A DNA stretch of 64,000 nucleotides from Trypanosoma brucei (Eukaryota): positions 64,001 to 128,000 of the forward strand of contig AL929603.2 of the NCBI GenBank assembly GCA_000002445.1. Reading direction: 5' to 3'. The notes under the pieces are model-generated. The model did not search any database and was not told the DNA's origin. It saw only the letters and a list, made by a program, of their open reading frames with translations. The translations under genes were made by a program, and so were the position numbers. This document shows, piece by piece, positions 3,001 through 28,797 of this stretch; within the stretch, counting starts at the first letter, position 1; the number at the start of each line of letters is the position of its first letter.

Positions 3001-5903
3001 GCACACAACCCATCCTGTCGTATGTCTCTTTGAAACTGGGCTAATGATACGCGGCTGCTTCATTATTTGGGCATACTTTTCTACAATGCGCAATTCTGAC
3101 TCCTTCTTTGATACTTTCTCTCTTTGTTTCTTTCTGCATCATCTGTGCTATTCTTAATGCTCCAACCCTCATCAAATCGCTTACTCGCTGCTTGCATCAT
3201 CCTCTGTCAAATCCACGGAAGGGAAATCATTCCCACATTCATTTCCTATTGGAGAGGTGAAGTCTTTTTTTTTCCTCATCCCGTGAGGTCACCTTTGTTT
3301 TCCCTTGTGAGTGTCAAGGAATGCTGTGCAATCGATAATTTGGGAAAGTTATTCACCGTTATAAGTCCCGGCTTCCCTCACACTGGGGCCGCACATTCCT
3401 TCCAATTGTATCTTACATCAAAAACACCCAAAGAATCGACTTGCTGACGGCAGTTGTCACACATCTGAGATACCACACTGTGCTTCGTGGGAGTTCCATT
3501 GTGTAGATGTGCTTTCCCAATTGTATTAATAATATGTTGTCAATGTCGTGCTTCCATTGCAACTACTGCCGCTCCGCGTGTCAGCAGTGCTCTTCTCTTT
3601 ATGGAATGTTCTATCATTACGTATGGTCTTTTCAGTATGGTGTCACATTTTCCCTTTGTGGTAATCGTTATGAACTTCTTCCCCTTTCCTCCAGAGGTTC
3701 CTCCCTATGACTTTTCTCACACTGGCAATGTCCTTTTCCCAGTTGATAATTACGCATCGTATGACTCTGTGGGTATCGCTTTTGAATTTCTTTGGAAGGT
3801 TCCCCCCAAAATCCACTATTGAGGCTTGCCTGCCGTGTGAGTGTGGTATAACATTTTTCTCTTTTTTTTCGGAGCTGTGTAATTTCTTTTTGCCATCGCA
3901 TGGCTGGGTGTAATTCAGGTCACTACTCATATTGCAACTGGATACCACTCTGGACGGAACTTCCTGCAAGATATTATCGAATCACCATTACAACATGTGT
4001 TGTGTTTGTTTGATGGGTTCACCTGTTACCGTATTGTAAAGACGGACCCCAAAAACAACATCCGCGTCGGTGTGTCCAATAGAAATGATGAAAGAGTTCT
4101 CCTGTACTGAAATGGCGTTGCTCTCTGAGAGTCGTAAACTTACAAAAACAAATAAAAGTGCAGTTGCATCCCATGCTGGCATGCGGTAATGATTTTCAGC
4201 CAATGCATAAAAACACCGCATGATGAATTCCCTGTTCCTCACATGTTTTAGTCCTCAGCCACATTCACTTTCCTATTCTATTGGCTCCTGAAACCATTGC
4301 CATGATGTACGGATGGCTTTGTGTGTGGGAACTGCAATAAAATAAAAATAATAATAATAACTCCTTTCACCAATGAGTTTACTATTGGTTGTAAAAGTGC
4401 TCTTGGTGCCACTCCATTATTCTTTTTGAGTCCCCAGCTTTTGAGGGGCTACTGTATTTTTTAAAAAGAGTGATGCACCGTTTTATTCTCCACCCCTTTC
4501 AGGTGAATTTCTCCTGCACAGTTTTTACTCTCCCATTGTAGAATGTTTCTCAAGGTGTTTCCTTTGTGAAGCTTTGGTTATGCTATAATTAAAGACCACT
4601 CAACTCCCTGCTTCAGGGACCTGCTGTTGCATTTATTCCCCTTTAGTTGCTGCAAATTTGTTCACTTGACAAGTTGTAGTGCAATACTTCACTTGACCAT
4701 ATGTGTAACATCGTGTCTCGTTGCTTTATAAAAATTCAAAAAAAAAACACATCAGGTGATATTCTTCTGTTCTTACTTCGTACATTCACATCTCTTCCCG
4801 TCAGTTCGGAAACTCCCACACAAACTCACCACTCCGTGAAGATTTGTAGTTTCCGTTAGTGATGGACGTACTGAAGTGGACATGTTTGGCACTTTAAAAC
4901 TAATTTTTTAAACTTACACCTTCCTTCTTTCATAGAGCTTCAGTGCGAGAGTAAAAGAATAGTTGAGTATCATGAGAAAACATAAGCCTAAAACATTCTC
5001 AACGCAAGCTTTCAATAAAAGCAAACGCATTAAGATGGTTTAGTGAACACATGCAGTATCGTCCATAGCAAAGGTATTATTTACACCCAATAAACAACTC
5101 AAACAAATAACACCAGCATACATATCGCAGACATATAAATTGCACCTACACAAACAAATAAAAACTGCTGTAACTCATCATGTGTAAAATATTATGAGCA
5201 CAAAAACATAAATGTCCTTGATCTTCCATGAATGTATAGCACAATATTATTTTGCATTATCATCGGAAAAAAAATGTATATTGATATATATATTCAGCCA
5301 AAAGTCAAGAGTGTGCTCTGGCCTTGTAGAACTGTAAATGCGTGCATGTTCTGTTATTATTGTTTCCCATTTTAAAATAAAGATACTTGCAGATGTGGAG
5401 AAACGTCTCCCTTAATGCTTATGATGCACCAAATAATTCTCTCGCAAAGAAAGGAGAGAACAAATGCTCAGTACACGCGTCCCTATTTGTATCTTTCAAT
5501 GAAGGTTCTCTTGAGTGGAGTAAAGAAAAAACAAATAAAAAGCAAGAAGTATATGATGTGAGTGATAATACATAATGAAATGACCCAACAAGAGGGAAAG
5601 GAAGTTACATGCCTTCACTACAGTCATACAAATAAAGCCAGACCCTTCACACTCGTTTTACAATGTTCTGTCGTATCGCTCTGCATAAACAAAAAATTAC
5701 TAATAGGAAATGGAAATGTAAGAATAGAGTAAAAAAGTATCAAGTAGCTTGAGGATTATCGACACTCAGCTACGTGGAATGATACGTATCGCAAATTTGT
5801 GTTTGAAATGCTCACCATCCTAATGAACTTACTCGTATGTTACTTAATCCTAGGAAATACTTCTCTGTGCGCTCAAGTTACCCGACAACTTTCCTTCCAC
5901 ACC
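1..5903. repeat. A-type segment, copy 1, truncated at the window edge: 5.9-kb 3' flank of type-1 RHS with no ORF above about 110 aa. Near-identical to 15931..21853.
   Basis: Direct comparison: 1..440 matches 15935..16400 and 37125..37560. The short ORFs at 3124..3447 recur at 19071..19394. RHS1a at 5904 has its counterpart at 21854. Confidence 0.85.
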
Positions 5904-8405
5904 CTATGCATTGTTACCACCTCTATTGTTAACTCCGTTGTTATTTTCACCTCTTGTTTTCAATTCAACGTATAGTGCAATAATGTGTTTATAAAGTGAG
6001 ACCGCGAACTGACGCACTTCCCTTTTCCAAAATCTTTCCTCAACCTCATTATTTTGCCCTTCATCTCTGTCAGTCCTTTCACAGCACTGCGGCTTCGTAA
6101 TTTTTTCGCTGTCAACCCTTTGGACATAAATTATTTCCCATACCATATCATTGGAAAAATTGTCCCAACCTTGGAAGTAACTTCGCAAATACCTCTTCAT
6201 CTTAAATAACCCACCGGTGCTGCAGGGATGTCTACCGGAAACTGTGTACTGCAGTCCCACAAAAGTCTTCGGGCTCTCAACGAAAAAGAACGCATCAACA
6301 ACTGGGAAACTCCTTGATTGCGGCTTGTACAATTTCATATATTGAATTTCAGCTCCAGCTACAATTGGAACATCCTCAGGAACCACAATCGAAGGACCAA
6401 TGAGTCTTGGTTCTTGCAGCACCTGCAGCACACTTTGTGGAATTTGATTCCTAGCAAATGAAAGGCCCTGTAACTCCCTTGCCAACTCAGTTAGTGTATT
6501 CTCATGCGACAATGCTTCAATGCCACTCTTCTCAAACATGTAGGCGGCGATAGCGCGGTTAGACAGCAGAGCAGACATTGCAGCATATTTATCCGTTAGC
6601 CAAGGTATCAGAAAGTCTAAAATAGCTTGTCCCGTGTAAGATGAAAGCGGTCTGCAGCGATACATTTCACACAGGAGCTTCTCCTCCTTCACTCGAACAA
6701 CCCCTACTAACTTGTGTGATACTTCATCTGTTTGCCACATAGCTGCGTTTTGGAAATATTTAGCGTAATCATTCATATCATCATCTTTCATTTTGCCAAT
6801 GGCTTCCTGAACCTTTCCCTCCTGCCTGTTATACGAACTAAGACGACCAATATGACGAAGCAGTGGACCAACGATACGAATGCGACCTTGAATTTCTTGC
6901 CATTCACTTTCAATTTTCTCCTTTGCAACTGGAGGACTCCACTTGTAAGCAGGAGCAATTTTCCCCCATCTCGATATGTGTATGGCTTCCAAATCCTTCA
7001 ATGTATCACAGTTCATGTAAATATCTGAGGCGGTGTTTTGCTTGGACCATTCATGGAATTGCTTGACGTTTGGAGAGCTCAAAGCAATACCGGCACAACC
7101 AGCAGGTGGTTTCGTCGGAGCAGGATGGTCCTTGTCCACATCGAATATAACGTATCCCTTGATATCCTCACCGCTACGTGATCCTCCGATTATTTGCTCA
7201 ACAACTGTAAATGCATTCCCATAATCATTGTAAAACGTAACATATCCTGCTCGACCACCTATGGGTTTGTGAAACACATACGCCTTACCCCTCACAACGT
7301 ATATGATAATCTGAAGCTGACTCGCTTCATAATGCAGTAGTTTGTATAACAGTAGGGATCCCACGGAAAACGATTTACCAATACCAGGTGTACCAATAAG
7401 AACATTAGACGCATCGTCAACAATCACTTCATCCATAAGCCACCGGTTAAGCACATTCTCCACCTTGTACCACACCCTCAGTGCTTCCCTGCGGATATAA
7501 ACATCACTTTTAAAAACATACTCCACTCCCTTCTCATGATTAATATCATAATCATTTGGGTTCTTTTCGAAAGACGTGTATGGCCAACCCATTTGAGATG
7601 TAAGCACAGCAATCTCCAAGTTACCGTGACGGGGAAGTGGTTCGTTCATAGTTTCCGGAGTGTGACTGACATCAACCTCCTCCTTCGTCCACATGTGTGG
7701 CGGTCTTCCATTGAACACTTTCATGCCAAGTGGCTCTTCATCATAACCCGACTCCACATAACCCCACGTCGCATTGTATATAGAATCATATACTCCTTTA
7801 AGTTCGCTACCATCAGCTGTTTGGGCAGCTCGCTTTTCCGCTCTCTTGGCGGCCGTCACCGCTCCATCCAACCTTCCCCTCGCCACGGGACCAACAAATT
7901 CTCTTATTTCCACTGTCCCCTTCTCCTCCCACTGACTGAGGTAGTAAATTTCTTTTTCGTCAAGGTAGTCTACCTTCTCAGACAGATCAATAGCTGTCTT
8001 CACTGTTTTAAACTCATTAGTGCCTTGTATATCCTCAAGAATCTCAGCATCAACAATATATTTTCTGGGATTCTTAACAAAAATGGGCATCCTAACATTT
8101 TCTGCCTCAGCCACCGCAAAAGTCCCGCCAACGAACTTCTGAATAAAGTCGTTCACTGTCATATCCCTCAAACCCGCATAATCATCCAGCAGCACATCCC
8201 TCACCTTACTATCCATTGTCCAGTTGGGCCCCCCTTCAGTTCTCTGCCGTATTTGTGGAGGCTGAGCAGCAGCAGCAGCAGCAGGAGGAGGAGGCGGCGG
8301 TACATTTTCATCCCGTGGCCTCCTCATGGGCCCTTCAAAATTATCTGCCACTTGTTGATTTTCATTATTTCCTTGTGGAGCTGCGGGACTATTTGCTCTT
8401 GACAT
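5904..8405 (-). CDS. RHS: Retrotransposon hot spot (RHS) protein, type-1 copy a, 833 aa, intact. N-terminal Pro/Ala tract and P-loop (GTPGIGKS).
   Basis: The 2502-nt ORF opens with ATG (cat on the plus strand at 8403..8405). Its N-terminus (MSRANSPAAPQGNNENQQVADNFEGPMRRP...) is shared by all RHS copies in the window. A Walker-A motif LIGTPGIGKS lies near 7365..7390. It is 99.8% identical to 21854..24355. Paralogs in the window are disrupted by ingi at the homologous position, which is characteristic of the T. brucei RHS family. Confidence 0.8.
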   Translation of the reverse strand: MSRANSPAAPQGNNENQQVADNFEGPMRRPRDENVPPPPPPAAAAAAQPPQIRQRTEGGPNWTMDSKVRDVLLDDYAGLRDMTVNDFIQKFVGGTFAVAEAENVRMPIFVKNPRKYIVDAEILEDIQGTNEFKTVKTAIDLSEKVDYLDEKEIYYLSQWEEKGTVEIREFVGPVARGRLDGAVTAAKRAEKRAAQTADGSELKGVYDSIYNATWGYVESGYDEEPLGMKVFNGRPPHMWTKEEVDVSHTPETMNEPLPRHGNLEIAVLTSQMGWPYTSFEKNPNDYDINHEKGVEYVFKSDVYIRREALRVWYKVENVLNRWLMDEVIVDDASNVLIGTPGIGKSFSVGSLLLYKLLHYEASQLQIIIYVVRGKAYVFHKPIGGRAGYVTFYNDYGNAFTVVEQIIGGSRSGEDIKGYVIFDVDKDHPAPTKPPAGCAGIALSSPNVKQFHEWSKQNTASDIYMNCDTLKDLEAIHISRWGKIAPAYKWSPPVAKEKIESEWQEIQGRIRIVGPLLRHIGRLSSYNRQEGKVQEAIGKMKDDDMNDYAKYFQNAAMWQTDEVSHKLVGVVRVKEEKLLCEMYRCRPLSSYTGQAILDFLIPWLTDKYAAMSALLSNRAIAAYMFEKSGIEALSHENTLTELARELQGLSFARNQIPQSVLQVLQEPRLIGPSIVVPEDVPIVAGAEIQYMKLYKPQSRSFPVVDAFFFVESPKTFVGLQYTVSGRHPCSTGGLFKMKRYLRSYFQGWDNFSNDMVWEIIYVQRVDSEKITKPQCCERTDRDEGQNNEVEERFWKREVRQFAVSLYKHIIALYVELKTRGENNNGVNNRGGNNA
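8264..8300. repeat. (CAG)6(GAG)3GGCGGCGG trinucleotide tract encoding the Pro/Ala run in the RHS N-terminus. Length varies between copies.
   Basis: gcagcagcagcagcagcaggaggaggaggcggcgg. The same tract recurs at about 13774..13810 and 24214..24250, and in shorter form at about 34944..34970. That copy encodes PPPPAAAAA where the others encode PPPPPPAAAAAAA. Confidence 0.8.
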
Positions 8406-10440
8406 AACTCTCTTAATATTATTAACTTAACTTCCTTTCCTTTTCTTTTTTCTCTGAAATTATAAATAACTGAAGTAAAATAATAGATAAGAAAACAATA
8501 GCGGGTGAACAGTGTAACATAATATCAAATGTAATAGAGCGCGTTAATGTTTATTCACTATAGTTTGCAGAATATGATATCATAATGTATTTGGTATTGA
8601 GAGGAACAATTTCAAAATATAGCAGCTGTAAATAAATATTTCCCTTGCTTCATTATCATGTGCTAAATATAATGAACTTCATACATCATTTCTTTAACTA
8701 TGAATAACATGCAGACAAAAAATATTACTGCCTCATATACCTGCATAAACACTTCGTATATATAATCAATATTTAAAGAGAGTCAAATTCTATTGATTAA
8801 AATCAAGTAAAACAATAAACAAAAAATTTATGGATATTAATGAAGCGAAGAAAAAGAGTATCGGCACAACACATAGATATACACACACATGAATACACAC
8901 CACACAACTACACAACTGTTCCACTGGAGTTTCCTCACTTCTGTCAATACGTAACATTCACTTGCATTGAATAAACTCATTGAAATATAAATCACTTATC
9001 CCCTCCCCCGTGTATTCACTTACTTCCAAAGGAGAATATTAAATAATGTCTGTAGGACAGGTAAAAAAAAACTGATAGTCTTTTTGCATCAGATAACCAG
9101 AGAGTATTTCTGTTTACTTTCATAATAAATAAAAACATTCTTTCACCTTCAGTTAAAATAAAATTTAATTACTTGCCTCCTCATTGTTCACAACTATCAA
9201 CAACTAATTCAGCGACACAAATTCATATGTATTTTATGTGCCATCGTTGTTTGATTCATTCACACACCTTTTATGATAGCGATAATACAACATATGGAAA
9301 ATAATTGGAATAAAATTAATACAATTAATTGAGGAAACCGTAAAAGATTATCATAACATATCTTTTATTTTCCCTCCTTTCATTTACACTGATTAATTAT
9401 GTAATGAGACAATTCCTTTTCAGTACGTGTCCACACTTATTGTATCATCATTGTAAGTTTCCTATTGCTCATATACACAAAGTTATTGGAATAACAAAAA
9501 AATAAAACAACACATCTAAATAACTTGAAAAAATATATAACAAATAAAGGTAATAAAGAAAATAAGCGTGAACAGACAGATAATAAAATGAAACACGTCT
9601 CGCACTTTCCTTCTAAATATTCAATAGTTGTATGTTACAAATAAAAACAATTACACATTATAGAAAAGAAGAGATATAATTACATTATACACCTGTATGT
9701 GGATATGTAACAGTGAGTCATAGTAGAAATAAATTGTCTAAACACAATAGTTATGGAAGATAAAATAATTCAAAATATCAATAATATTATTCTATCAACA
9801 TTCCCTTCCTTCTCCATTAAGTTTTCAAATGGTTTCAAATAATAATTCACATAATCTCATACATATGTTATGATGGGTTTTGCATGCAGTACAATTTAAA
9901 GGAAGTGTAGCTCATATAACATTTTCAAAAATAGGTATTGAATGACTGTTTGCTACCATCAATTACATTTCCAATGCCTGATTACACTTTTATATGCATG
10001 AAGGAAGTTACTGATGATAACTTTGACATGCTCGAGAATTCATAACACAAAGCGACTGCTGCATGCAATAAAAAATAAAAATAAAAATAACATCCGAATT
10101 CATTTACTGACAGATGAGTGCAATTCATTCACCCAAACTTCATAGCTGCAAATATAAACTCGCTGCTGCCAATAGGAAATAATCCCGCATAAATATTGAG
10201 TATCTGAAAATGATAGCAACGGGTTTCCATTTTTGAAATATATACATAAACTACATGAGGTATATGAAGCCATATTGGTAAAGTGTCACTACGCATGTTG
10301 CAATTTACTATCAGAAGTGTCTGCCTTATTTTATTTCTTGTGTTAATGTAACTCATGAGTATTATTCATTATTCTTTACAATACAACTGTAAGTCATTTT
10401 GCATTTTTACATATTTTCTTATTCCCTCATACTGGAAGTG
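8406..10440. repeat. B-type segment copy 1: approximately 2.0-kb conserved 5' flank of RHS genes (upstream in the sense of minus-strand transcription).
   Basis: Begins aactctcttaatattattaacttaacttcctttcc. The segment recurs at 13916, 24356 and 35082. Copies 1 and 3 are near-identical over 2 kb. Confidence 0.8.
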
Positions 10441-11423
10441 TTCCACATATAATATTCCTCAATATCGTTCACAAAATAAAAATAATTTTATTTACTTCTG
10501 CATTCAGTTTCTTGTGCAGCAGTGTGTACACTAATCATCCATAAAGTTTTTAATTTGCCAAATACATCATTACGAAACTATTTTCATACACAAACACAAA
10601 CACATACAAATAAACAACCAAACATTTTTAAATGTTGTTGTGAAACGGAAATTGAATCACGGAAAATTGTGGGGCGCACACGTAATGGGCACCATGAATG
10701 CCTCTTTGGATATTCCTCTATGGATTTTCACCAGCATCATCAACTTACTTTTTGTGTAAAAAAAAACAAAAAAGAAATAAAGGTACAAATGCATTAATAA
10801 ACCCAACTCCTCAGCAGGAAATCAAGAACAGGAAGCCACGAAAAGCGTATGGCACATATGATTTTCACCTCTCAGTTACTTGAGGTGGATCGCATGATTT
10901 ACCCACCTTCTAAGAGCACACCCTCCGAGAGGCCCGATTAAAAGAAAAAAAAACGCTATGACGGTTGAAAAGACGTTTTTCATAAACCTTCACTTTATAC
11001 GTGAGGATGCATGAATAAACAATGATAACGATGAGAATGCTAACGGAAACAATGACGAACCGTGAGGATCCTAGAAAAAAAAATAAAATAAAATCATCAC
11101 GTACCTTCGCAGTAGGGAAACTTAATAAATAACAAAATATAAATATTCCCTACACAGAGGTATAGGGAGTGTTCGTCAACTTCGTAATTCTAATCAAAAA
11201 GTCTTCAAATGTATCGATCATTCGTGTAGTCAATCAAATAAGAAGTAACATGTACTACACGCACAAAAGCACACTTACAAAGCCTACAAACCCACTTGCC
11301 CCCTTTTAGAGAATACCACTCTCTAGTCAGTGATAGGAGAGGTGATATTAAAAGCATTCCCTTTATAATTATTTCTGACTCCTCAATTCGTTGCAACATA
11401 ACATAACATGCAAAGATGTTGCA
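10441..11423. repeat. C-type segment copy 1: approximately 1-kb 3' flank specific to type-2 RHS. Begins with the roughly 160-bp junction motif shared with A segments.
   Basis: Matches 26391..27364, including aaatgttgttgtgaaacggaaattgaatcacggaaaattgtggggcgcacacgtaatgggcacc. Confidence 0.75.
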
Positions 11424-13915
11424 TCAGGCAGCGGGGCCACCAGCAATAGCGTTTGGTTCATCCTGGGTGATCTCCTTAACAATATTCCCTTCCATCTTCA
11501 CTTGAAACTGGTTGATTCTATTCCACAACTCTGTAGTATAATCGCCTCTGCCCCCAACTGGTTCGCACTTCTGCCTCTCCTCGATTGGCTTGCTGTCACT
11601 GTACTGTATGTAAATCAGCTCCCATTTCAAGTTTCTTGCGAGCTTATCCCATTCACCAAACAATTGTTTCATTGCCTTGATAAACTTATCTACCTTCTCT
11701 CGTGTCGTGTGATGCGTTGGTGCCACTGTCGGCTGGAGCAGAACAATTGTTCTTGTAATGATCGCTCTTCCTTCTCTATCAACAGCTGGCTCAGTTACAA
11801 AGAAAAAGGCGTCCACAACGGGGAAATTTCCCTGTACAGGTCGGTAAAGGCACCCAACCTCAATGTCTTGGCCTGTCGTTTCGGGTAAATATGACGAAGT
11901 GAAGTTGGAACACGTCCCACGGCATTACCACTTGCCAGAGCGGATACATTTGAATCCATTTCTTCTCCAACGCGAGGGAGATACCGCAGGTGCGTCACAA
12001 TCGTCTGCACAACATTTCCCATCGTGAAGGCATATATGCCCACATTTTCAAATTCATCAGCGGCCTGCTCTTTTTTCCCACGAAAAACCTTTCGAAGGTA
12101 ATTGTCTCGCATACATGCTGTGTCCGCCCACTCTCTCAATTTCTGCTCAATATCAATGGAAACAGCTCTGTTTCTGCATTCTTCTCCATTCTCAGTTACA
12201 ACCCGGACCAACTTAGCCAACCTGTATGTAGTCCCGTCCTCGCGCCATTCAACTCGACTATTCAGCACCTTCATGTAGTGTTCAGCATCGCCTCTACTGA
12301 TTTCTGCCAGTGCCTCATTTATTTCTCTAACATGGTCACAATAGGGTTTGTCACCTTCCAGTACGTGGCGGGGCAGTGGGCCCACCTTCTTAATCCATCC
12401 TTCTATTTTCTGCCATTCATTCTCAAGGTTTATGATGTGAGCTTCGGTGATTTTACTTTCGTCCAACTTCGACAGCCGCCTCCACGCAACCGCAGCCTTC
12501 AGTTCCACCTCTTCATAGCAATTGATGCAAAAGCGCTCGCAAGCCCGTGGCCGCTTCCAGCGTCTGTAGTTATTTGGATCTGGAGATGTCAACACAATTA
12601 CGGGCCACGTTTCCGGCAATTTTGTCGGTATGGGTTCATCTCTCTCTTTCGCAAAGTCGTATATAATGTAACCAAGACCTTCTTCATCAGCCAAGTCATT
12701 GACAGCATCCACTCCATCTTTTTCTTCTTCATAAAATACAACCTTTCTCGGATGATCATTTGTCGCCCTGAAGAAAATATATGCCCTACCCTTCACAAAA
12801 TAAGCGATAATCCGCAACAGCTCCGAATCGTAATGCAGCAACCTTTGGAGCAGAAACGAGCCAACACCAAATGATTTCCCAATACCTGGAGTGCCAACGA
12901 GGACGCAAGGTATCTTTTTTTTATTCACGCCTGGCCCTAACCACAAATCCAGCCTCTGCTTCACAAGATACCACACTCTCATTACCTCTCGACGAATGTA
13001 CACATCCCGGTCAAACACGTAGTCTCCTGGTTCCTCCGCACCCTCTTGAATTACACTTCGCGGAATGCGGAAACGGTTATACGGCCAACCCTTCTGCGAG
13101 GTGAGCACAGCAATCTCCAAATTACCGTGACGAGGCAGTGGGTCGCACAAGTCATAAGGCGTGTGACTGACATTCACCTCCTCTTCTGTCCACAACTCGG
13201 GCTCGCCGTCACAATTACCCACAACCTTCATGCCAAGAGGTAAATCATTGTGACCCGACTCCACATAACCCCACGTCGCATTGTATATGGATTCATATAC
13301 TCCTTTCAGTTCGACACCATCAGCTTTTTGGGCAGCTCTTTTCCTTGCTTCTTTGGCGGCCGCCAACGCTCCATCCAACCTTCCCCTCGCCATGGGACCA
13401 ACAAATTCTCTTATTTCCACTGTCCCCTTCTCCTCCCACTGACTGAGGTAGTAAATTTCTTTTTCGTCAAGGTACCTTGCTTTCCGCTTCATTTCAGAGA
13501 ATTGGTTATATAATTCTTTATATTCCTCAAACTCATCAAGCCGCCGTATCCTTCCTAGAATCCCGGCATCCAAAATATAATCCTCCGGGCTCTGGACAAA
13601 CACATCCATTGCCACATTCTCTGTGTCATACGTATTAGAGAATTTTTTCAGCAAAAAGTCATGCACTGTCATATCCCTCAAACCCGCATAATCATCCAGC
13701 AGCACATCCCTCACCTTACTATCCATTGTCCAGTTGGGCCCCCCTTCAGTTCTCTGCCGTATTTGTGGAGGCTGAGCAGCAGCAGCAGCAGCAGGAGGAG
13801 GAGGCGGCGGTACATTTTCATCCCGTGGCCTCCTCATGGGCCCTTCAAAATTATCTGCCACTTGTTGATTTTCATTATTTCCTTGTGGAGCTGCGGGACT
13901 ATTTGCTCTTGACAT
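11424..13915 (-). pseudogene. RHS: RHS type-2 copy a. Full length of 830 codons, but frameshifted by a 1-bp deletion in a G/C homopolymer (GGG at 11883..11885, where the paralog at 27824..27827 has GGGG).
   Basis: The 706-aa ORF (11795..13915) and the 130-aa ORF (11424..11816) together are collinear with the paralog 27365..28843 plus 34052..35081. The downstream ORF matches the paralog C-terminus (FFFVTEPAVDREGRAI...AIAGGPAA) in the -1 frame. Confidence 0.8.
12845..12856 (-). other. Unoccupied (empty) ingi hot-spot target TTCTGCTCCAAA (minus-strand sense) in RHS2a. It is identical to the TSD flanking ingi-1.
   Basis: Plus strand 12845..12856 reads tttggagcagaa, followed by acgagccaacacc. Exactly this 12-mer is duplicated at 28786..28797 and 34052..34063. 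Confidence 0.85.
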
Positions 13916-15930
13916 AACTCTCTTAATATTATTAACTTAACTTCCTTTCCTTTCCTTTTTTCTCTGAAATTATAAATAACTGAAGTAAAATAATATATAA
14001 GGAAACAATAGCGGGTGAACAGTGTAACATAATATCAAATGTGATAGAGCAATATAATGTTTACTCACTATAGTTTGTATAATATGATATCATAATGCAT
14101 TTGGTATTGAGGGGAACAATTTCAAAATATAGCAGCTGTAAATAAATATTTCCCTTGCTTCATTATCATGTGCTAAATATAATGAACTTCATACATCATT
14201 TCTTTTTAAACCATGAATAATATGGAAACAAAAAATATTACTGCCTCATATACCTGCATAAACACTTCGTATATATAATCAATATTTAAAGAGAGTCAAA
14301 TTCTATCAATTAAAATCAAGTTAAACAAAAAACAAAAAATTTATGGATACTAATGAAACGAAGAAAAAGAGTATCGGCACAACACATAGATATACACACA
14401 TGGATACGCACTACACAACTGTTCCACTGGAGTTTCCTCACTTCTGTCAATACGTAATATTCACTTGCATTGAATAAACTCATTGAAATATAAATCACTT
14501 ATCCCCTCCCCCGTGTATTCACTTACTTCCAAAGGAGAATATTAAATAATGTCTGTAGGACAGGTAAAAAAAACTGATAGTCTTTTTGCATCAGATAACC
14601 AGAGAGTATTTCTGTTTACTTTCATAATAAATAAAAACATTCTTTCACCTTCAGTTAAAATAAAATTTAATTACTTGCCTCCTCATTGTTCACAACTATC
14701 AACAACTAATTCAGCGACACAAATTCACATGTATTTTATGTGCCTTCGTTGTTTGATTCATTCACACATCTTTTATGATGGTGATTATACAACTTATTGT
14801 AAAAAATTGGAATAAAATTAATACAATTAATTGAGGAAACCGTAAAAGATTATCATAACATATCTTTTATTTTCCCTCCCTTCATTTACACAGATTAAAT
14901 ATGTAATGATAAAATTCCTTTTCAGTACGTGTCCACACTTATTGTATCATCATTGTAAGTTTCCTATTGCTCATATACACAAAGCTATTGGAATAACAAA
15001 AACATAAAACAACACATCTAAAGAACTTGAAAAAATATATAATAAATGTAAAAGAGGATGTATGAACTGACAGATAATAAAATGAAACACGTCTCGCATT
15101 TTCCTTCTAAATATTCAATAGTTGGCGGATTACAAAACAATTACACATTATAGAAAGGAAGGAATATAATTACATTATACATCTGCATGTGGATATGTAA
15201 CAGTGAGTCATAGTAGAGATGAATTGCCTAAACACGATAGTTATGGAAGATAACATAATTCAAAATATCAAAAATATTATTCTATCAAAATTCCCTTCCT
15301 TCTCCATTAAGTTTTCAAATGGTTTCAAATAATAATTCACATAATTCCATACATATGTTATGATGGGTATTGCATGCAGTACAATTTAAAGGAAGTGCAA
15401 CTCATATAACATTTTCAAAAAAAGGTATTGAATGGTTGTTTGCTACCATCAATTACATTTCCAATGCCTAATTACACTTTTATATGCATGAAGGAAGTTA
15501 CTGATCATAACTTTGACATGCTCGAGAATCCATAACACAAAGCGACTGCTGCATGCAATAAAAAATATAAATATAAATAACATCCGAATTCATTTACTGA
15601 CAGATGAGTGCAATTCATTCATCCAAACTTCATAGCTGCAGAAATAAACTCGTTGCTTCCAATAGGAAATGATCGCGCATAAATATTGAGTATCTGAAAA
15701 TGATAGCAACGGGTTTCCATTTTTGAAATATATACATAAACTACATGATGTATATGAAGCCATATTTGTAAAGTGTCACTACGCATGTTGCAATTTACTA
15801 TCAGAAGTGTCTGCCTTATTTTATTTCTTGTGTTAATGTAACTCATGAGTATTATTCATTATTCTTTACAATACAACTGTAAGTCATTTTGCATTTTTAC
15901 ATATTTCCTTATTCTCTCATACTGGAAGTA
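13916..15930. repeat. B-type segment copy 2 (5' flank of RHS2a).
   Basis: Same start sequence and body as 8406..10440, with a few indels and substitutions. Confidence 0.8.
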
Positions 15931-18900
15931 TTCCACATATAAGATTCCTCAATATCGTTCACAAAATAAAAATAATTTTATTTACTTCTGCATTCAGTTT
16001 CTCGTGTAGCAGTGTGCACTAATCATCCATAAAGTTTTTAATTTGCCAAATACATCATTACGAAACTATTTTCCACAAATAAACAAACAAACAAATCATT
16101 GGGACAATATCTTTGAGATATTTCCTTTACTACATTTGCAGTTCAGTAGTAATTAAAATACACTTTTTGTATAATTCAACACATGGTGGAATTGCAAAGA
16201 AATGTGATGGTACTTATAATCAACAAGTTCCCAATTTTCCTCATACGGTCTCCTTTCATGCCTTTACATCCATATATAATTCACAGAGAATTACTGCAAT
16301 TTCTTTCATATGCTTTCAGGATTCCATATGTCACAATACAAATAATATATATATATATATCCTCCTACATAATTTGGACAGAATATTGCTTAACATATAA
16401 ATTATCACAAACCTACGATATTACACTCTTCCTAAGAATAATAGAATCAAATTATTTCTATTTTGCATCATTACATGAAGCTTTGGAAAATGAAAAAAAA
16501 GAATCAAACAAAAGGTAATGTAAACAACACAGTTTTTTAATACAGAATATAACTTGTTTGTGAATTTCAGATGCAAACACAAAATGTTCAAACAGGGAAA
16601 CAGTAAAGGACGGTACTGGTGATGTAAGCACAAATTAATCAAAAATAGAAACATAAATAAATTTGAAACTTATAAAAACACAAATATATATGATACAAAT
16701 ATTTACCACATATTATAATTCGCCACCCTCACACTTGAATTACAAAAAGTACATAACACACATATGTGCCATCTTCTTAACATAATCATTCCAATATTTA
16801 CTCAGTATGTGTGTGTGTGTAGAAATGATGAAATGTAATTGTAACAAATCAGGCACAACACAAACAAAATATATGCATTATATTATTCTCTAAAAAGTAG
16901 AAGAATAAAAATCAAGAAATATTACGCAGCTTTCCTCACAAGTAATTTTGTTTCTGTGCATATATATATACATAACACGACAGCTGACAACATTAAACTC
17001 TCAATTCCATAATATCTGACGCCTGAAGTGATAATTAGCCGCGGATGCCTCTATCAAAAAACAACAGAAATAACAACATCAAAGCATGTTTTGAAAGCTT
17101 AAATAAACTTCCTCATGGATAAACCATTTGTACAAAGTTTGAGTGACAAGTAGGAGGAACAAAGAAAAAATAAAAAAAGAAGAATTAAATGGTAAAAGAA
17201 TTGCGTGTGATATAACTAAAGGATTTGTTAGGCACTACACTCATTAAACTCCAGTTTCATAAAAATACTGCAAGGCATAATATTTACTGCTTTACCGGTT
17301 ATGTGCCTCCAGCAAGCAATAATAAATACTTCGAGTATTATTCGATTTCTGATGCTATGAAGTGTGTAATAAATTAGTGCATGAGTAAAATATTCAAATG
17401 TTGGTGTTCACTTCAGATTATAAACTCTGCACTATGAATGTCTAGCGATGTTTATAATTTGAGAGAGCAAAAGTGACGGCGCTACTATTTATTTCTTCCG
17501 GTTCATGAATATATATAAATATATTTATACATATATAATCAGATGTGACATGCAAAAGCGTTTAAACATCAGGCATGAACATCTTTCCATCCATTTAAAG
17601 TAAGACGATACAATAAGGTAAGTTTAGGATGAAGTGAAGGTATCATAATGTTAATATCTTCCTTCAAGCGGAGGATTCAATTCAAATAGGCGTACTTCAC
17701 AAACAATAGTAAAATAACTGAGAAAACTTATATCACTTAATCGTTATTTCCTTCAATTCTTATTTTGAATCGCTCTGTACCGTCACACCTTCAATAAAGT
17801 ATATAGTGACGCATTTCACACATCTTCCCTAAGCCATCTCTCATAGTCATAGTTCTCAACAGCAATAATAACAAATAATGAATGGTTTAGTTCTTACCTT
17901 CCCTTTTTTACTACCCACAAGAAAGATATACGAAATAATTATCATGCTGAATAAACAGTAAGGTTTCCTCATCATCCTACGCAAAATATGAATTGAAACG
18001 ATAATTTACTAACGAAGCGGAAGTGTCTGAAAGCGTCTTTAACTCATCTCCTGTGCGGGGCGAAGAGGGTTGTGTTGTGTGGGCTTTCTAAAAATTTCAC
18101 TCTCTTGCAGACAGCTGTGTAAATAAACGGGGAGTACAGGTGTGTTTAGAGAAATATAACCGTACAAAATAATACTCTGCACTCCTAAGTCCAAAACAAC
18201 CATTCATAATGCAGGCTTTCATTAAAAAAATAAGTAGCAGTAGTAGTAGTAAGGAGAAAGCTATTGTTTTTTCTCACTCCTGCTGCCACGTACATCATGC
18301 ATGATACAACAGTTTCCATTTATTCTATAGTAGATTTTTTCACATAGCAAGGGATACTCGGAATTGTTGTGTCACTTTCGTTGTCCCAGCCATACTGTCT
18401 GCTTTTCATGGTTAAACTAAAACTCCAATGAAATCACATTGTTGTGTCATCTTTTGCAAATCACCAATGATAGTATGCCCTACATTCCTCCATGCTCGTA
18501 ACTATTTTGTTTCCACGACATTTAACCACGTCATGTGCCTCACACTAATAAATATGTTGCATATCCATGTTTGAGTCCTCAATATTTCAGGGGTCGCCTG
18601 CTGCAGCCTCACGAGAAGTGCATGTCCTGAAAAGACCCTTGTGATGGTGTGTAAAACTCCAGGGTTCTCTTTATTAACTGATGGGGAGTCGATTCGAATT
18701 CAATAGTTCCTCATTTTAGTTAAGGCATCGGAACTCCAGCCGAACATCCTCAGGCAACTTCACTTTGGAGAGGAATGACTTTAGATCAAACAATGCTACA
18801 GACTGGTCATGGAGAGTATTTAAATACTGGGAAAAGTGACCCAATGGGAGATATGCCTCATAATCATCCCTGCTCTTTTTAGCCTTTGGTCATGCAATAA

Positions 18901-21853
18901 ATCAACGCCTTCTTCCAAATCTGTGTTTCCCCCAATCACAAAGAATAGCACATAACTCATCCTGTCATATGTCTCTCTGAAACTGTGCCAATGATACGCG
19001 GCTGCTTCATTATTTGGGCATACTTTTCTACAATGCGCAATTCTGACTCCTTCTTTGATACTTTCTCTCTTTGTTTCTTTCTGCATCATCTGTGCTATTC
19101 TTAATGCTCCAACCCTCATCAAATCGCTTACTCGCTGCTTGCATCATCCTCTGTCAAATCCACGGAAGGGAAATCATTCCCACATTCATTTCCTATTGGA
19201 GAGGTGAAGTCTTTTTTTTTCCTCATCCCGTGAGGTCACCTTTGTTTTCCCTTGTGAGTGTCAAGGAATGCTGTGCAATCGATAATTTGGGAAAGTTATT
19301 CACCGTTATAAGTCCCGGCTTCCCTCACACTGGGGCCGCACATTCCTTCCAATTGTATCTTACATCAAAAACATTAAAAGAATCGACTTGCTGACGGCAG
19401 CTGTCACATATCTGAGATACCGCACTGTGCTTCGTTGGAGTTCCATTGTGTAGATGTGCTTTCCCATTTGTATTAATAATATGTTGTCAATGTCGTGCTC
19501 CATTGCAACTACTGCCGCTGCGCGTGTCAGCAGTGCTCTTCTCTTTATGGGATGTTCTATCATTACGTATGGTCTTTTCAGTATGGTATCACATTTTTCC
19601 TTTTGTGGTAATGGCTATGATTTTTCCTCTTTCCTCCAGAGGTTCCTCCCTATGACTTTTCTCACACTGGCAATATCCTTTTCCCAGTTGATATTTACGC
19701 ATCGTGTGACTCTGTGGGTATCGCTTTTGAATTTCTTTGGAAGGTTCCCCCCAAAATCCACTATTGAGGCTTGCCTGCCGTGTGAGTGTGGTATAACATT
19801 TTTCTCTTTTTTTTCGGAGCTGTGTAATTTCTTTTTGCCATCGCATGGCTGGGTGTAATTCAGGTCACTACTCATATTGCAACTGGATACCACTCTGGAC
19901 GGAACTTCCTGCAAGATATTATCGAATCACCATTACAACATGTGTTGTGTTTGTTTGATGGGTTCACCTGTTACCGTATTGTAAAGACGGACCCCAAAAA
20001 CAACATCCGCGTCGGTGTGTCCAATAGAGATGATGGAAGAGTTCTCCTGTACTGAAATGGCGTTGCTCTCTGAGAGTCGTAAACTTACAACAACAAATAG
20101 AAGTGCAGTTACATCCTATGCTGGAATGCGGTAATGATTTTCCGCCAATGCATAAAAACACCGCATGATGAATTCCCTGTTCCTCACATGTTTTAGTCCT
20201 CAGCCACATTCACTTTCCTATTCTATTGGCTCCTGAAACCATTGCCATGATGTACGGATGGCTTTGTGTGTGGGAACTGCAATAAAAATAATAATTATTA
20301 TTATAACTCCTTTCACCAATGAGTTTACTATTGGTTGTAAAAGTGCTCTTGGTGCCACTCCATTATTCTTTTTGAGTCCCCAGCTTTTGAGGGGCTACTG
20401 TATTTTTTAAAAAGAGTGATGCACCGTTTTATTCTCCACCCCTTTCAGGTGACTTCCTCCTGCATCGTTTTTACTTTCCCATTGTAGAATGTTTCTCAAG
20501 GTGTTTCCTTTGTGAAGCTTTGGTTATGCTATAAGTAAAGACCACTCAACTCCATGCTTCCGGGACCTGTTGTTGCATTTATTCCCCTTTAGTTGCTGCA
20601 AATTTGTTTATTTGACAAGTTGTAGTGCAATACTTCACTTGACCATATGTGTAACATCGTGTCTCGTTGCTTTATAAAAATTCAAAAAGAACACATCAGG
20701 TGATATTCTTCCGTTTTTACTTCGTACATTCACATCTCTTCCCGTCAGTTCGGAAACTCCCACACAAACTCACCACTCTGTGAAGATTTGTAGTTTCCGT
20801 TAGTGATGGGTGTACTGAAGTGGACATGTTTGGCACTTCAAAACTAAGTTTTTTTAAACTTACACCTTCCTTCTTGCATAGAGCTTCAGTGCGAGAGTAA
20901 AAGAATAGTTGAGTGTTATGAGAAAACATAAGCCCAAATATTCTCGATGCAAGTTTTCAATAAAAGCAAACACATTAAGATGGTTCAGTGAACACATGCA
21001 GTATCGTCCATAGCAAAGGTATTATTTACACCCAATAAACAACTCAAACAAATAACACCAGCATACATATCGCAAACATATAAATTGCACCTGCACAAAC
21101 AAATAAAAACTGCTGTGACTCATCATGTGTAAAATATTATGAGCACAAAAACATAAATGTCCTTGACCTTCCATAAATGTATAACACAATATTATTTTGC
21201 ATTATCATCGGGAAAATATTTATATATATATATATATGTATATTCAGCCAAAAGTCAAGAGTGTGCTCTGGCCTTGTAGAACTGTAAATGCGTGAATGTT
21301 CTGTTATTATTGTTTCCCATTGTAAAATGAAGATACCTGCAGATGTGGAGAAACGTCTCCTTTAATGCTTATGATGCATCAAATAATTCTCTCGTAAAGA
21401 AAGGAGCGAGCAAATGCTCAGTACACGTGTCCCTATTTGTATCTTTCAATGAAGGTTCTCTTGAGTGGAGTAAAGAAAAAACAAATAAAAAGCAAGAAGT
21501 ATATGATGTGAGTGATAATACATAATGAAATGACCCAACAAGAGGGAAAGGAAGTTACATGCCTTCACTACAGTCATACAAATAAAGCCAGATCCTTTAC
21601 ACTCGTTTCACAATGTTCTGTCGTATCGCTCTGCATAAAAAAAAAAATACTAATAGGAAATGGAAATGTAAGAAGAAAGTAAAAAAGTATCAAATAGCTC
21701 GAGGGTTATCGACACTCAGCTACGTGGAATGATACGTATCGCAAATTTGTCTTTGAAATGATCACCATCCTAATGAACTTACTCGTATGTTACTTAATCC
21801 TAGGAAATACTTCTCTGTGCGCTCAAGTTACCCGACAACTTTCCTTCCACACC
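15931..21853. repeat. A-type segment copy 2, complete (5.9 kb).
   Basis: Collinear with 1..5903, including the (GT)n at about 16806 versus 865 and the TAG/TAA trinucleotide run at about 18236 versus 2286. Confidence 0.85.
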
Positions 21854-24355: not shown

Positions 24356-26390
24356 AACTCTCTTAATATTATTAACTTAACTTCCTTTCCTTTTCTTTTT
24401 TCTCTGAAATTATAAATAACTGAAGTAAAATAATAGATAAGAAAACAATAGCGGGTGAACAGTGTAACATAATATCAAATGTAATAGAGCGCGTTAATGT
24501 TTATTCACTATAGTTTGCAGAATATGATATCATAATGTATTTGGTATTGAGAGGAACAATTTCAAAATATAGCAGCTGTAAATAAATATTTCCCTTGCTT
24601 CATTATCATGTGCTAAATATAATGAACTTCATACATCATTTCTTTAACTATGAATAACATGCAGACAAAAAATATTACTGCCTCATATACCTGCATAAAC
24701 ACTTCGTATATATAATCAATATTTAAAGAGAGTCAAATTCTATTGATTAAAATCAAGTAAAACAATAAACAAAAAATTTATGGATATTAATGAAGCGAAG
24801 AAAAAGAGTATCGGCACAACACATAGATATACACACACATGAATACACACCACACAACTACACAACTGTTCCACTGGAGTTTCCTCACTTCTGTCAATAC
24901 GTAACATTCACTTGCATTGAATAAACTCATTGAAATATAAATCACTTATCCCCTCCCCCGTGTATTCACTTACTTCCAAAGGAGAATATTAAATAATGTC
25001 TGTAGGACAGGTAAAAAAAAACTGATAGTCTTTTTGCATCAGATAACCAGAGAGTATTTCTGTTTACTTTCATAATAAATAAAAACATTCTTTCACCTTC
25101 AGTTAAAATAAAATTTAATTACTTGCCTCCTCATTGTTCACAACTATCAACAACTAATTCAGCGACACAAATTCATATGTATTTTATGTGCCATCGTTGT
25201 TTGATTCATTCACACACCTTTTATGATAGCGATAATACAACATATGGAAAATAATTGGAATAAAATTAATACAATTAATTGAGGAAACCGTAAAAGATTA
25301 TCATAACATATCTTTTATTTTCCCTCCTTTCATTTACACTGATTAATTATGTAATGAGACAATTCCTTTTCAGTACGTGTCCACACTTATTGTATCATCA
25401 TTGTAAGTTTCCTATTGCTCACATACATAAAGTTATTGGAATAACAAAAAAATAAAACAACACATCTAAATAACTTGAAAAAATATATAACAAATAAAGG
25501 TAATAAAGAAAATAAGCGTGAACAGACAGATAATAAAATGAAACACGTCTCGCACTTTCCTTCTAAATATTCAATAGTTGTATGTTACAAATAAAAACAA
25601 TTACACATTATAGAAAAGAAGAGATATAATTACATTATACACCTGTATGTGGATATGTAACAGTGAGTCATAGTAGAAATAAATTGTCTAAACACAATAG
25701 TTATGGAAGATAACATAATTCAAAATATTAAAAATATTATTCTATCAACATTCCCTTCCTTCTCCATTAAGTTTTCAAATGGTTTCAAATAATAATTCAC
25801 ATAATCTCATACATATGTTATGATGGGTTTTGCATGCAGTACAATTTAAAGGAAGTGTAGCTCATATAACATTTTCAAAAATAGGTATTGAATGACTGTT
25901 TGCTACCATCAATTACATTTCCAATGCCTGATTACACTTTTATATGCATGAAGGAAGTTACTGATGATAACTTTGACATGCTCGAGAATTCATAACACAA
26001 AGCGACTGCTGCATGCAATAAAAAATAAAAATAAAAATAACATCCGAATTCATTTACTGACAGATGAGTGCAATTCATTCACCCAAACTTCATAGCTGCA
26101 AATATAAACTCGCTGCTGCCAATAGGAAATAATCCCGCATAAATATTGAGTATCTGAAAATGATAGCAACGGGTTTCCATTATTTAAATATATGCATAAA
26201 CTACATGAGGTATATGAAGCCATATTGGTAAAGTGTCACTACGCATGTTGCAATTTACTATCAGAAGTGTCTGCCTTATTTTATTTCTTGTGTTAATGTA
26301 ACTCATGAGTATTATTCATTATTCTTTACAATACAACTGTAAGTCATTTTGCATTTTTACATATTTTCTTATTCCCTCATACTGGAAGTG
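24356..26390. repeat. B-type segment copy 3.
   Basis: Near-identical to 8406..10440. Confidence 0.8.
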
Positions 26391-28785: not shown

Positions 28786-28797
28786 TTTGGAGCAGAA
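28786..28797. repeat. Target-site duplication, 3' copy, of ingi-1 (plus strand tttggagcagaa; element sense TTCTGCTCCAAA).
   Basis: Immediately follows the element poly(A), which is a plus-strand T10 at 28798..28807. It is a 12/12 match to 34052..34063. Confidence 0.85.

What the first reader, a model, noticed from the sequence alone, without database searches (positions are those of the whole stretch)
12845..12856. Empty and filled alleles of the RHS insertion hot spot are both present in this window. The target 12-mer is intact in RHS2a and duplicated around ingi-1 in RHS2b.
What the sequence shows directly:
- RHS2a reads ...gcaacctttggagcagaaacgagcc... (12841..12866).
- RHS2b reads ...gcaacctttggagcagaa|T10... 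at 28781..28807, and ...ccaggg|tttggagcagaaacgagcc at 34046..34070.

This is a textbook pre- and post-integration pair. It fixes the first-strand nick precisely at AAA^GG, just 3' of the Walker-A codons.
Basis: seen in the sequence. Interest (0 to 1): 0.5.

Follow-up and report, generated by a model that had tools for sequence, protein, structure and literature searches.

The report
ingi insertion at known RHS hot spot
Two neighbouring copies of a Trypanosoma brucei RHS2 gene show the before and after states of an ingi retrotransposon insertion at the family's long-known hot spot; this is a clean textbook example, not a new phenomenon.

Summary
The 12-mer TTTGGAGCAGAA occurs exactly three times in the window. 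It occurs once in RHS2a (12844-12855, one base left of the stated coordinates) and once on each side of a 5,254-bp ingi element (28798-34051, minus-strand sense) in RHS2b. The left flank aligns up to 12855 and the right flank from 12844, so the two overlap by exactly the 12-mer. There is no junction deletion and no filler. The reconstructed pre-integration sequence differs from RHS2a at 1 of 412 bases.

Three points need correcting.
- The two copies are tandem paralogues 15.9 kb apart on one molecule, not alleles.
- AAA^GG is the second-strand nick. Under target-primed reverse transcription, the first-strand nick is on the window plus strand at GAA^ACG (12855|12856). The published Tbingi target signature agrees: its only two exact matches in the window are at this site.
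- The "empty" RHS2a is itself frameshifted about 1 kb downstream. RHS2b would be an intact 816-codon gene if the element were excised.

The RHS hot spot, the 12-bp duplication and the target signature were all described in 2002-2004. Points worth noting: ingi-1 has an intact 1,657-codon ORF, in frame with RHS2b. A second ingi sits in the same codon register of another RHS pseudogene.

The parts
12844..12855 (-). Unoccupied target 12-mer in RHS2a (sense TTCTGCTCCAAA, codons F-L-L-Q). The inferred first-strand nick is on the plus strand between 12855 and 12856. The inferred second-strand nick is on the minus strand between 12844 and 12843.
   Evidence: Nick polarity is inferred from the junctions plus PMC3820030.
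12849..12877 (-). Exact match (10/10 specified positions) to the published Tbingi (ingi4) target signature AxxxxxxxTxxxGTxGGxTxxx^xTxTxxT.
   Evidence: only 2 exact matches in 64 kb (0.20 expected). The other is 34057-34085(-).
12872..12895 (-). Walker-A (P-loop) codons GTPGIGKS of RHS2a, ending 16 nt upstream of the 12-mer.
   Evidence: Pfam RHSP P-loop domain.
11795..13915 (-). RHS2a ORF, 706 codons, empty at the hot spot. A 1-nt deletion in a C-run (11883-11885) truncates it, and RHS2 homology continues in another frame to 11427.
28786..28797 (-). Duplication copy at the 3' (poly(A)) end of ingi-1, continuous with the RHS2b 3' half.
28798..34051 (-). ingi-1, 5,254 bp. Its 5' end is CCCTGGCGATGCC at 34051 and its A10 tail is at 28807-28798. 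An intact 1,657-codon ORF runs from 34043 to 29070 and encodes APE endonuclease, RT, RNase H and a C2H2 finger. The 2A-like DVEENPGP motif is at 33789-33812.
34052..34063 (-). Duplication copy at the 5' end of ingi-1, continuous with the RHS2b 5' half.
27365..28797 (-). RHS2b 3' half (P-loop domain remainder plus the RHS2-specific C-terminus ...EITQDEPNAIAGGPAA).
34064..35081 (-). RHS2b 5' half (DUF7578, RHS_N, start of RHSP including Walker A at 34080-34103). With ingi-1 it forms a 2,003-codon in-frame fusion ORF, 29070-35081.
1..37123 (.). Two tandem units of a segmental duplication with a period of about 15,934 bp (1-15934, and 15935-37123 including ingi-1). Each unit carries one 833-codon RHS of another subfamily and one RHS2. 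A third unit begins at 37124 and homology ends at 37958.
7343..7354 (-). Homologous, unoccupied hot-spot 12-mer (TACTGTTATACA) in the other RHS paralogue. Its twin is at 23293-23304. It fits the signature at 9/10 positions.
58506..63735 (+). ingi-2 (58518-63723, degenerate ORF) flanked by a perfect 12-bp duplication TTCTCCTTCACA (58506-58517 and 63724-63735). It lies in a decayed RHS pseudogene (P-loop GNSRISKS) in the same codon register as ingi-1.

Best explanation
The window is Trypanosoma brucei-group DNA carrying a tandemly duplicated RHS gene cluster. After the 15.9-kb unit duplicated, a full-length ingi (Tbingi) non-LTR retrotransposon integrated into the RHS2 copy of the second unit (RHS2b). 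It did so by target-primed reverse transcription at the RHS family's known insertion hot spot.

Proposed steps, all inferred:
1. The ingi APE-type endonuclease recognised the motif A-x7-T-x3-GT-x-GG-x-T-x3 that the RHS coding sequence provides just after its P-loop codons.
2. It nicked the antisense (window plus) strand at GAA^ACG, corresponding to 12855|12856 in the empty copy.
3. That 3'-OH primed cDNA synthesis on the poly(A) tail.
4. The sense strand was nicked 12 nt downstream at AAA^GG.
5. Fill-in of the 12-nt stagger produced the duplication.

Shown directly: the junction structure, the exact 12-bp duplication, the absence of any deletion or filler, the match to the target motif, and the identities of the element and the gene.

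RHS2a preserves the unoccupied state of the site.
For: Junctions:
- The 12-mer is present exactly three times, at the expected places.
- The flank alignments abut and overlap by exactly 12 nt.
- There is 1 mismatch in 412 nt after in-silico excision.
- The excised RHS2b reads as an intact 816-codon RHS.

Synteny:
- Both flanks are colinear with unit A, for 12.9 kb on the left and 3.9 kb on the right.

Element:
- It is 5,254 bp with an A10 tail and carries Exo_endo_phos, RVT_1, RNase_H and zf-C2H2 domains.
- It has an intact 1,657-codon ORF and a 2A-like motif.
- Its size matches the published 5.25 kb (PMC2323293).

Gene:
- Pfam finds RHSP, RHS_N and DUF7578.
- The C-terminal domain is 91-92% identical to the cluster containing AAL14353.1 'RHS2a [Trypanosoma brucei]' and three TREU927 chromosome 2 proteins. 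PMC6393297 lists RHS2 as Tb927.2.280/380/400.

Target:
- The published ingi4 signature, with its first-strand arrow, matches exactly and only at this site (text, 2 hits against 0.20 expected).

Hot-spot behaviour:
- ingi-2, a T. equiperdum RIME, and two T. equiperdum ingi 3' junctions all sit in the same register.
- The literature gives a fixed 12-bp duplication for Tbingi/TbRIME and a hot spot five codons after the ATP/GTP motif (PMC3820030, PMC7563717).
Against: - Nothing in the sequence contradicts this explanation.
- The order of events (duplication first, insertion second) is the parsimonious reading but is not proven.
- Divergence is uneven. It is 1/412 around the site, 98.5% on the left flank, and 92.6-96.9% on the right flank. 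This shows that gene conversion or recombination has acted on the units.
- The primer end ...GCAGAA-3' cannot base-pair with poly(A). Priming without annealing is therefore assumed, not shown.
- Endonuclease specificity for the motif is a published inference from insertion-site statistics. To my knowledge it has not been shown biochemically for Tbingi.
Confidence: 0.86

Rival explanations
1. The insertion predates the tandem duplication. RHS2a later lost its ingi, either by recombination between the two 12-bp duplication copies or by gene conversion from an unoccupied RHS2 paralogue. On this reading the 'empty' site is a restored state, not the ancestral one.
For: RHS copies clearly exchange sequence. 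Identity is near-perfect (1/412) around the site but lower further out. Empty RHS2 donors exist elsewhere: the TREU927 and T. equiperdum proteins read ...GSFLLQRLL... uninterrupted.
Against: Precise deletion between 12-bp repeats 5.25 kb apart is expected to be rare. ingi-1 still has a perfect duplication, an intact 1,657-codon ORF and an A10 tail, and RHS2b has no disabling mutation. These features argue for a young insertion. The units, by contrast, differ by 1.5-7%.
Confidence: 0.06
2. RHS2b is a chimeric pseudogene. Its two halves come from different RHS2 loci and were brought together by ectopic recombination between two ingi copies, each inserted at the hot spot. The matching 12-mers would then reflect a shared target sequence and not a single integration event.
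For: The hot-spot 12-mer is shared among RHS2 copies, so identical flanking 12-mers are not proof of one event. The flanks show unequal divergence from unit A (98.5% against 96.9/92.6%). Recombinant ingi copies with an RHS2 3' half but a non-RHS 5' flank do exist in T. equiperdum.
Against: Both flanks keep the order and spacing of the tandem unit. The third unit starts where expected if exactly one ingi plus 12 bp was added (15935+15934+5266 is about 37124). The excised gene is an intact 816-codon ORF.
Confidence: 0.05
3. Assembly artefact. Two haplotypes of one heterozygous locus, one with ingi and one without, were laid end to end. The pair would then be true alleles and the tandem duplication would not exist.
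For: RHS regions are repetitive, subtelomeric and notoriously hard to assemble. The window's source is unknown, and none of its proteins is on record exactly.
Against: The units differ by 2.5% with 33 gaps over 12.9 kb, and the right flank falls to 92.6%. A third partial unit follows at 94.4%. This graded divergence is typical of a real tandem array. Each unit itself contains two diverged RHS genes that share a 2.4-kb upstream block.
Confidence: 0.03

Closest known systems
RHS (retrotransposon hot spot) multigene family of Trypanosoma brucei, RIME/ingi insertion hot spot (Bringaud et al. 2002, Eukaryot Cell 1:137; cited in PMC7563717 and PMC6393297)
   Same: P-loop NTPase-like gene with RHS_N and RHSP domains. 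The retroelement is inserted a few codons after the ATP/GTP-binding motif, always at the same relative position and in the gene's orientation. Intact and interrupted copies sit side by side in clusters. The subfamily is defined by the C-terminus, here RHS2.
   Different: Nothing essential. This is one particular copy pair. Its specific features are that the interrupted copy would be intact if the element were excised, while the uninterrupted neighbour carries a frameshift.
Tbingi/TbRIME (ingi4 subclade) relative site specificity (Bringaud et al. 2004, Mol Biol Evol 21:520; signature quoted in PMC3820030)
   Same: Fixed 12-bp target-site duplication. The upstream motif AxxxxxxxTxxxGTxGGxTxxx^xTxTxxTxxxxx is matched at 10/10 positions. 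The first-strand cleavage lies at the 5' edge of the duplicated block.
   Different: None found. ingi-2's site fits only 8/10 positions.
L1Tc of Trypanosoma cruzi (same clade; APE endonuclease, Pr77 promoter/HDV-like ribozyme, 2A peptide; PMC5814959)
   Same: Single ORF with APE, RT, RNase H and a C-terminal zinc finger. A 2A-like DxExNPGP motif lies near the N-terminus. The 5' end is conserved, the duplication is 12 bp, and a conserved motif lies upstream of the first-strand nick.
   Different: The target motif differs (GAxxAxGaxxxxxtxTATG^A...). Ribozyme and promoter activity of the ingi 5' end were not tested here, and Rfam has no matching family.
Site-specific non-LTR elements such as R2 (28S rDNA) and SLACS/CZAR/CRE (spliced-leader genes)
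   Same: Repeated use of one position in a multicopy host gene, with priming that needs no poly(A)/T-rich annealing.
   Different: Those elements use a restriction-like endonuclease and are strictly site-specific. ingi uses an APE endonuclease and is only relatively site-specific: it also inserts outside RHS wherever the motif occurs.

Membership tests
Tbingi (ingi4 subclade) non-LTR retrotransposon | Length about 5.25 kb with a 3' poly(A) tail | tested here: met
   5,254 bp including A10. The published size of 5.25 kb is in PMC2323293.
Tbingi (ingi4 subclade) non-LTR retrotransposon | Single long ORF encoding APE endonuclease, reverse transcriptase, RNase H and a zinc finger | tested here: met
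   Pfam finds Exo_endo_phos(_2), RVT_1, RNase_H and zf-C2H2_4. The ORF is uninterrupted at 1,657 codons.
Tbingi (ingi4 subclade) non-LTR retrotransposon | Conserved 77-79-nt 5' signature shared with RIME | tested here: met
   The first 78 nt are identical in ingi-1 and ingi-2. The T. equiperdum RIME equals ingi-1 nt 1-247 joined to nt 5007-5251. That this sequence is the published signature rests on my own knowledge. Ribozyme and promoter activity were not tested.
Tbingi (ingi4 subclade) non-LTR retrotransposon | 12-bp target-site duplication | tested here: met
   12/12 identical, with unambiguous boundaries on both sides. The 12-bp rule is in PMC3820030.
Tbingi (ingi4 subclade) non-LTR retrotransposon | Upstream target signature AxxxxxxxTxxxGTxGGxTxxx^xTxTxxT | tested here: met
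   10/10 positions. These are the only exact matches in the window (signature text).
Tbingi (ingi4 subclade) non-LTR retrotransposon | Integration by target-primed reverse transcription, with the first nick on the antisense strand | not testable with these tools
   Inferred from the junction: poly(T) is joined to plus-strand A28797. Confirmation needs an in vitro nicking or TPRT assay.
RHS family, subfamily RHS2 | RHS_N and RHSP (P-loop) domains with an ATP/GTP-binding motif just upstream of the insertion site | tested here: met
   Pfam E-values are 1e-140 and 1e-60. GTPGIGKS ends 16 nt before the 12-mer. Described in PMC7563717.
RHS family, subfamily RHS2 | Subfamily-specific C-terminal domain | tested here: met
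   The RHS2b C-terminal 476 aa are 91-92% identical to the cluster holding AAL14353.1 'RHS2a' and three TREU927 chromosome 2 proteins. They are only 25% identical to another subfamily, P0004.
Allelic presence/absence polymorphism | Empty and filled states occupy the same locus on homologous chromosomes or in different individuals | tested here: not met
   The two sites lie 15.9 kb apart on the same molecule, in successive units of a tandem duplication. They are paralogues. Whether the RHS2b insertion is itself polymorphic in populations could not be tested.

The most novel reading that the evidence does not exclude
ingi-1 may be a very recent, still retrotransposition-competent master copy. 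It has a perfect duplication, an A10 tail and an intact 1,657-codon ORF, and its host gene is otherwise undamaged. Its expression might exploit the hot spot: the fixed codon register puts the ingi ORF in frame with the RHS2 start codon. A trans-spliced RHS2::ingi mRNA could then be translated from the RHS ATG, with the ingi polyprotein released at the 2A-like DVEENPGP motif. On this reading the RHS hot spot would serve as an expression dock for the element, not just a tolerated landing site. The insertion would also be polymorphic among strains.
Probability: 0.15. Interest if true: 0.45.

Novelty: already known. Interest (0 to 1): 0.15.

Why it matters
This is a well-resolved instance of a phenomenon that gave the RHS gene family its name. 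It adds no new principle.

Its practical value is modest:
- It gives an internally controlled empty/filled pair that fixes both nick positions for one ingi event to the nucleotide.
- It flags an apparently intact ingi copy, the only intact one of the four full-length copies examined here. That copy could serve as a candidate active element for retrotransposition assays or as a presence/absence marker between strains.
- It shows that hot-spot occupancy alone does not tell which RHS copy is functional. The unoccupied RHS2a is frameshifted.

Tried and rejected
- Exact-sequence look-ups of four window proteins (RHS2a, the 833-aa RHS, the LRR protein and the RHS::ingi fusion) found nothing. P0001 was also not on record. 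The window's strain and chromosome therefore could not be placed, and no orthologous locus from another strain could be compared. The window is not TREU927 chromosome 2: those RHS2 proteins are only about 91% identical to RHS2b.
- Rfam at gathering thresholds found no family anywhere in the window.
- An MFE fold of the ingi 5' 79 nt was no better than shuffles (z = -0.6). This is uninformative, because HDV-like ribozymes are pseudoknotted. I make no claim about ribozyme activity.
- Tandem Repeats Finder found nothing.
- Bringaud 2002 (PMC118050) and Bringaud 2009 (PMC2756862) are not held. The hot-spot description and the signature are cited second-hand from PMC7563717 and PMC3820030.
That failure is what exposed the 1-nt shift.
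- The T. equiperdum ingi copies next to RHS2 3' halves (L001, L003) are not orthologous filled alleles. Their 5' flanks are non-RHS and lack the 12-mer.
Full report
**1. The observation**

An exact search shows that TTTGGAGCAGAA occurs three times in the 64-kb window and never on the opposite strand: at 12844-12855, 28786-28797 and 34052-34063. The stated 12845-12856 is therefore one base too far right. The RHS2b coordinates are correct.

BLASTN of the region against the window gave two alignments:
- 4844-12855 matches 20788-28797 at 98.5% over 8 kb, and stops exactly at the last base of the 12-mer.
- 12844-13459 matches 34052-34667 at 96.9% without gaps, and starts exactly at its first base.

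The two alignments overlap in the unoccupied copy by exactly the 12 nt. Nothing is deleted and nothing is added at either junction.

I removed 28798-34063 in silico and compared +-200 nt with RHS2a. This gave 1 mismatch in 412 positions, ungapped. Across the whole window, only two exact 12-mer pairs are spaced 5.2-5.3 kb apart. They are the pairs that flank the two ingi copies.

**2. What the parts are**

Host genes:
- The ORF 11795-13915(-) and the split ORF around the insertion carry Pfam DUF7578, RHS_N and the RHSP P-loop domain, with E-values down to 1e-140.
- The C-terminal 476 residues of RHS2b are 91-92% identical to a 90% cluster. That cluster contains AAL14353.1, named 'RHS2a [Trypanosoma brucei]' by its depositors, and three T. 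b. brucei TREU927 chromosome 2 proteins.
- PMC6393297 lists RHS2 as Tb927.2.280/380/400. The RHS2 label and the T. brucei-group origin hold.

Inserted element (28798-34051, sense on the minus strand):
- It is 5,254 bp, begins CCCTGGCGATGCC and ends in A10.
- It encodes APE-type endonuclease, reverse transcriptase, RNase H and a C2H2 finger.
- Its size matches the published 5.25 kb for ingi (PMC2323293).

**3. Paralogues, not alleles**

A self-comparison shows that 1-12855 matches 15935-28797 (97.5%, 12.9 kb) and 12844-16768 matches 34052-37958. A third unit starts at 37124.

The window therefore holds a tandem segmental duplication with a period of about 15.9 kb. Each unit has one 833-codon RHS of another subfamily and one RHS2. 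The empty and filled sites lie on the same molecule in successive units. They are paralogous sites. Whether the RHS2b insertion is polymorphic between individuals is untested.

**4. Nick polarity**

On the window plus strand the filled site reads ...GCAGAA(28797)-T10-(antisense ingi). The antisense strand of the element is the first cDNA strand. In target-primed reverse transcription it is covalently extended from the nicked target. The primer was therefore the plus-strand 3'-OH that corresponds to A12855.

- The first-strand nick is GAA^ACG on the plus strand, between 12855 and 12856. In sense-strand notation this is CGT^TTC.
- The sense strand reads ...CTCCAAA(34052)-CCCTGG..., so AAA^GG is where the 5' end of the element was joined. 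That is the second-strand nick, 12 nt downstream.

The literature agrees:
- PMC3820030 writes the ingi-clade signatures with the first-strand arrow at the 5' edge of the 12-nt duplicated block. For Tbingi (ingi4) it gives 5'-AxxxxxxxTxxxGTxGGxTxxx^xTxTxxTxxxxx-3'.
- PMC5814959 writes the L1Tc motif the same way.

A search for the specified part of the ingi4 signature finds exactly two hits in 64 kb, against 0.20 expected: 12849-12877(-) and 34057-34085(-). Both are at the RHS2 hot spot, and the arrow falls at 12856|12855.

The statement that the site is just 3' of the Walker-A codons is right. GTPGIGKS (12872-12895) ends 16 nt before the 12-mer. This matches the 'five codons' of PMC7563717.

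**5. Hot-spot behaviour seen directly**

I scored ten RHS P-loop sites in the window and in three T. equiperdum loci. Five are filled, counting 3' junctions, and all five are in the same codon register:
- ingi-1.
- ingi-2 (58518-63723, plus strand). It has a perfect duplication TTCTCCTTCACA and lies in a decayed RHS pseudogene.
- A T. equiperdum RIME with duplication TTTTGCTTCATT. It equals ingi-1 nt 1-247 joined to nt 5007-5251.
- Two T. equiperdum ingi copies that abut RHS2 3' halves, with 12-mers TTCTGCTCCAAg and TTCaGCTCCAAA.

Those last two have non-RHS 5' flanks without the 12-mer. They are recombinant copies. This is a useful contrast with the clean pair in the window.

**6. State of the genes**

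- With ingi-1 and one 12-mer removed, RHS2b is an uninterrupted 816-codon ORF ending in the RHS2 C-terminus.
- The unoccupied RHS2a has lost one C from a C-run (11883-11885). It shifts frame after about codon 678, and homology continues out of frame to 11427.
- ingi-1 has an intact 1,657-codon ORF from its own ATG at element nt 9. ingi-2 and both T. equiperdum ingi copies are broken.
- Because of the fixed register, the ingi frame is also open to the RHS2b ATG. This gives a 2,003-codon fusion ORF, 29070-35081.
- A 2A-like DVEENPGP motif (33789-33812) lies about 80 codons into ingi. It corresponds to the functional 2A of L1Tc (PMC5814959).

**7. Mechanism and rivals**

The best explanation (confidence 0.86) is a single ingi integration into RHS2b, by target-primed reverse transcription at the RHS hot spot, after the unit duplicated.

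The junction anatomy, the motif match and the identities are shown directly. The enzymatic steps and the order of events are inferred.

Three rivals remain:
- Secondary, precise loss of the element from RHS2a (0.06).
- A chimera formed by ingi-ingi recombination (0.05).
- Haplotypes mis-assembled in tandem (0.03).

None is excluded outright. All three are disfavoured by the colinearity of both flanks with unit A, the arithmetic position of the third unit, the graded divergence between units, and the youth indicators of ingi-1.

**8. Comparison with what is known, and verdict**

The following are established in the literature I could read:
- The RHS hot spot, its position after the ATP/GTP motif, and the coexistence of intact and interrupted copies (Bringaud et al. 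2002, as cited in PMC7563717 and PMC6393297). PMC6393297 counts 78 of 118 TREU927 RHS genes as pseudogenes.
- The fixed 12-bp duplication and the Tbingi target signature (Bringaud et al. 2004, as cited in PMC3820030).

The finding is a correct and tidy instance of a known phenomenon. It needs three corrections: a one-base coordinate shift, paralogues instead of alleles, and the nick polarity. Novelty is 'already known', and interest is low at 0.15.

The most novel reading still open is that ingi-1 is a recent, active copy expressed through the in-frame RHS2 fusion and 2A release. I give it a probability of about 0.15, with moderate interest if true.

Noticed in passing
window 11883-11885 (minus strand C-run) within RHS2a 11427-13915: The hot-spot-empty RHS2a carries a 1-nt deletion (CCCC to CCC relative to RHS2b). 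It shifts frame after about codon 678, giving 706 codons instead of 816. The interrupted RHS2b would be intact if ingi-1 were removed. This could be a real pseudogene or a homopolymer sequencing error.
   Followed up: yes
window 29070-35081 (minus): ingi-1 has an uninterrupted 1,657-codon ORF (34043-29070) that is also in frame with the RHS2b start codon, giving a 2,003-codon fusion ORF. A 2A-like DVEENPGP motif sits at 33789-33812. The three other full-length ingi copies examined are all disrupted.
   Followed up: partly
window 58506-63735 (plus): A second ingi (58518-63723, degenerate, 97.6% identical to ingi-1) has a perfect 12-bp duplication TTCTCCTTCACA. It lies inside a decayed RHS pseudogene (P-loop GNSRISKS) in the same codon register as ingi-1. 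Its site fits the Tbingi signature at only 8/10 positions.
   Followed up: yes
window 12644-13055 versus 28586-28797 plus 34064-34263: Identity between RHS2a and RHS2b is almost perfect around the hot spot (1 mismatch in 412 nt). It falls to about 97% by 600 nt and to 92.6% beyond 13529/34704, with an 11-codon indel in the N-terminal region. This suggests local homogenisation (gene conversion) or strong constraint on the P-loop region.
   Followed up: no
window 7343-7354 and 23293-23304 (minus): The two copies of the 833-codon RHS of another subfamily (78% identical to TREU927 XP_951473) have unoccupied hot-spot sites (TACTGTTATACA). These fit the Tbingi signature at 9/10 positions, so they are potential targets still empty.
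   Followed up: partly
L001 4167-9431 and L003 4119-9383 (T. equiperdum CM010673.1 and CM010672.1): Full-length ingi copies are joined at their 3' ends to RHS2 3' halves at the hot-spot 12-mer (one mismatch each). Their 5' flanks are non-RHS, lack the 12-mer and lie next to VSG genes, so they are probably products of ingi-ingi recombination. In L001 the poly(A) and the preceding TC are missing (gaaaat|TTCTGC).
   Followed up: partly
L001 14009-14530: A RIME of about 0.5 kb (ingi-1 nt 1-247 joined to nt 5007-5251) sits in another RHS at the same register, with a perfect duplication TTTTGCTTCATT. A similar RHS with the site empty (TTTTACTTCATT) is at L002 15843-15854.
   Followed up: yes
window 48972-53318 (plus): A 1,448-codon ORF made almost entirely of leucine-rich repeats (Pfam LRR_4, LRR_14 and others) lies between the RHS array and the ingi-2 pseudogene. 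The region 38-48.9 kb has no ORF of 250 codons or more.
   Followed up: no
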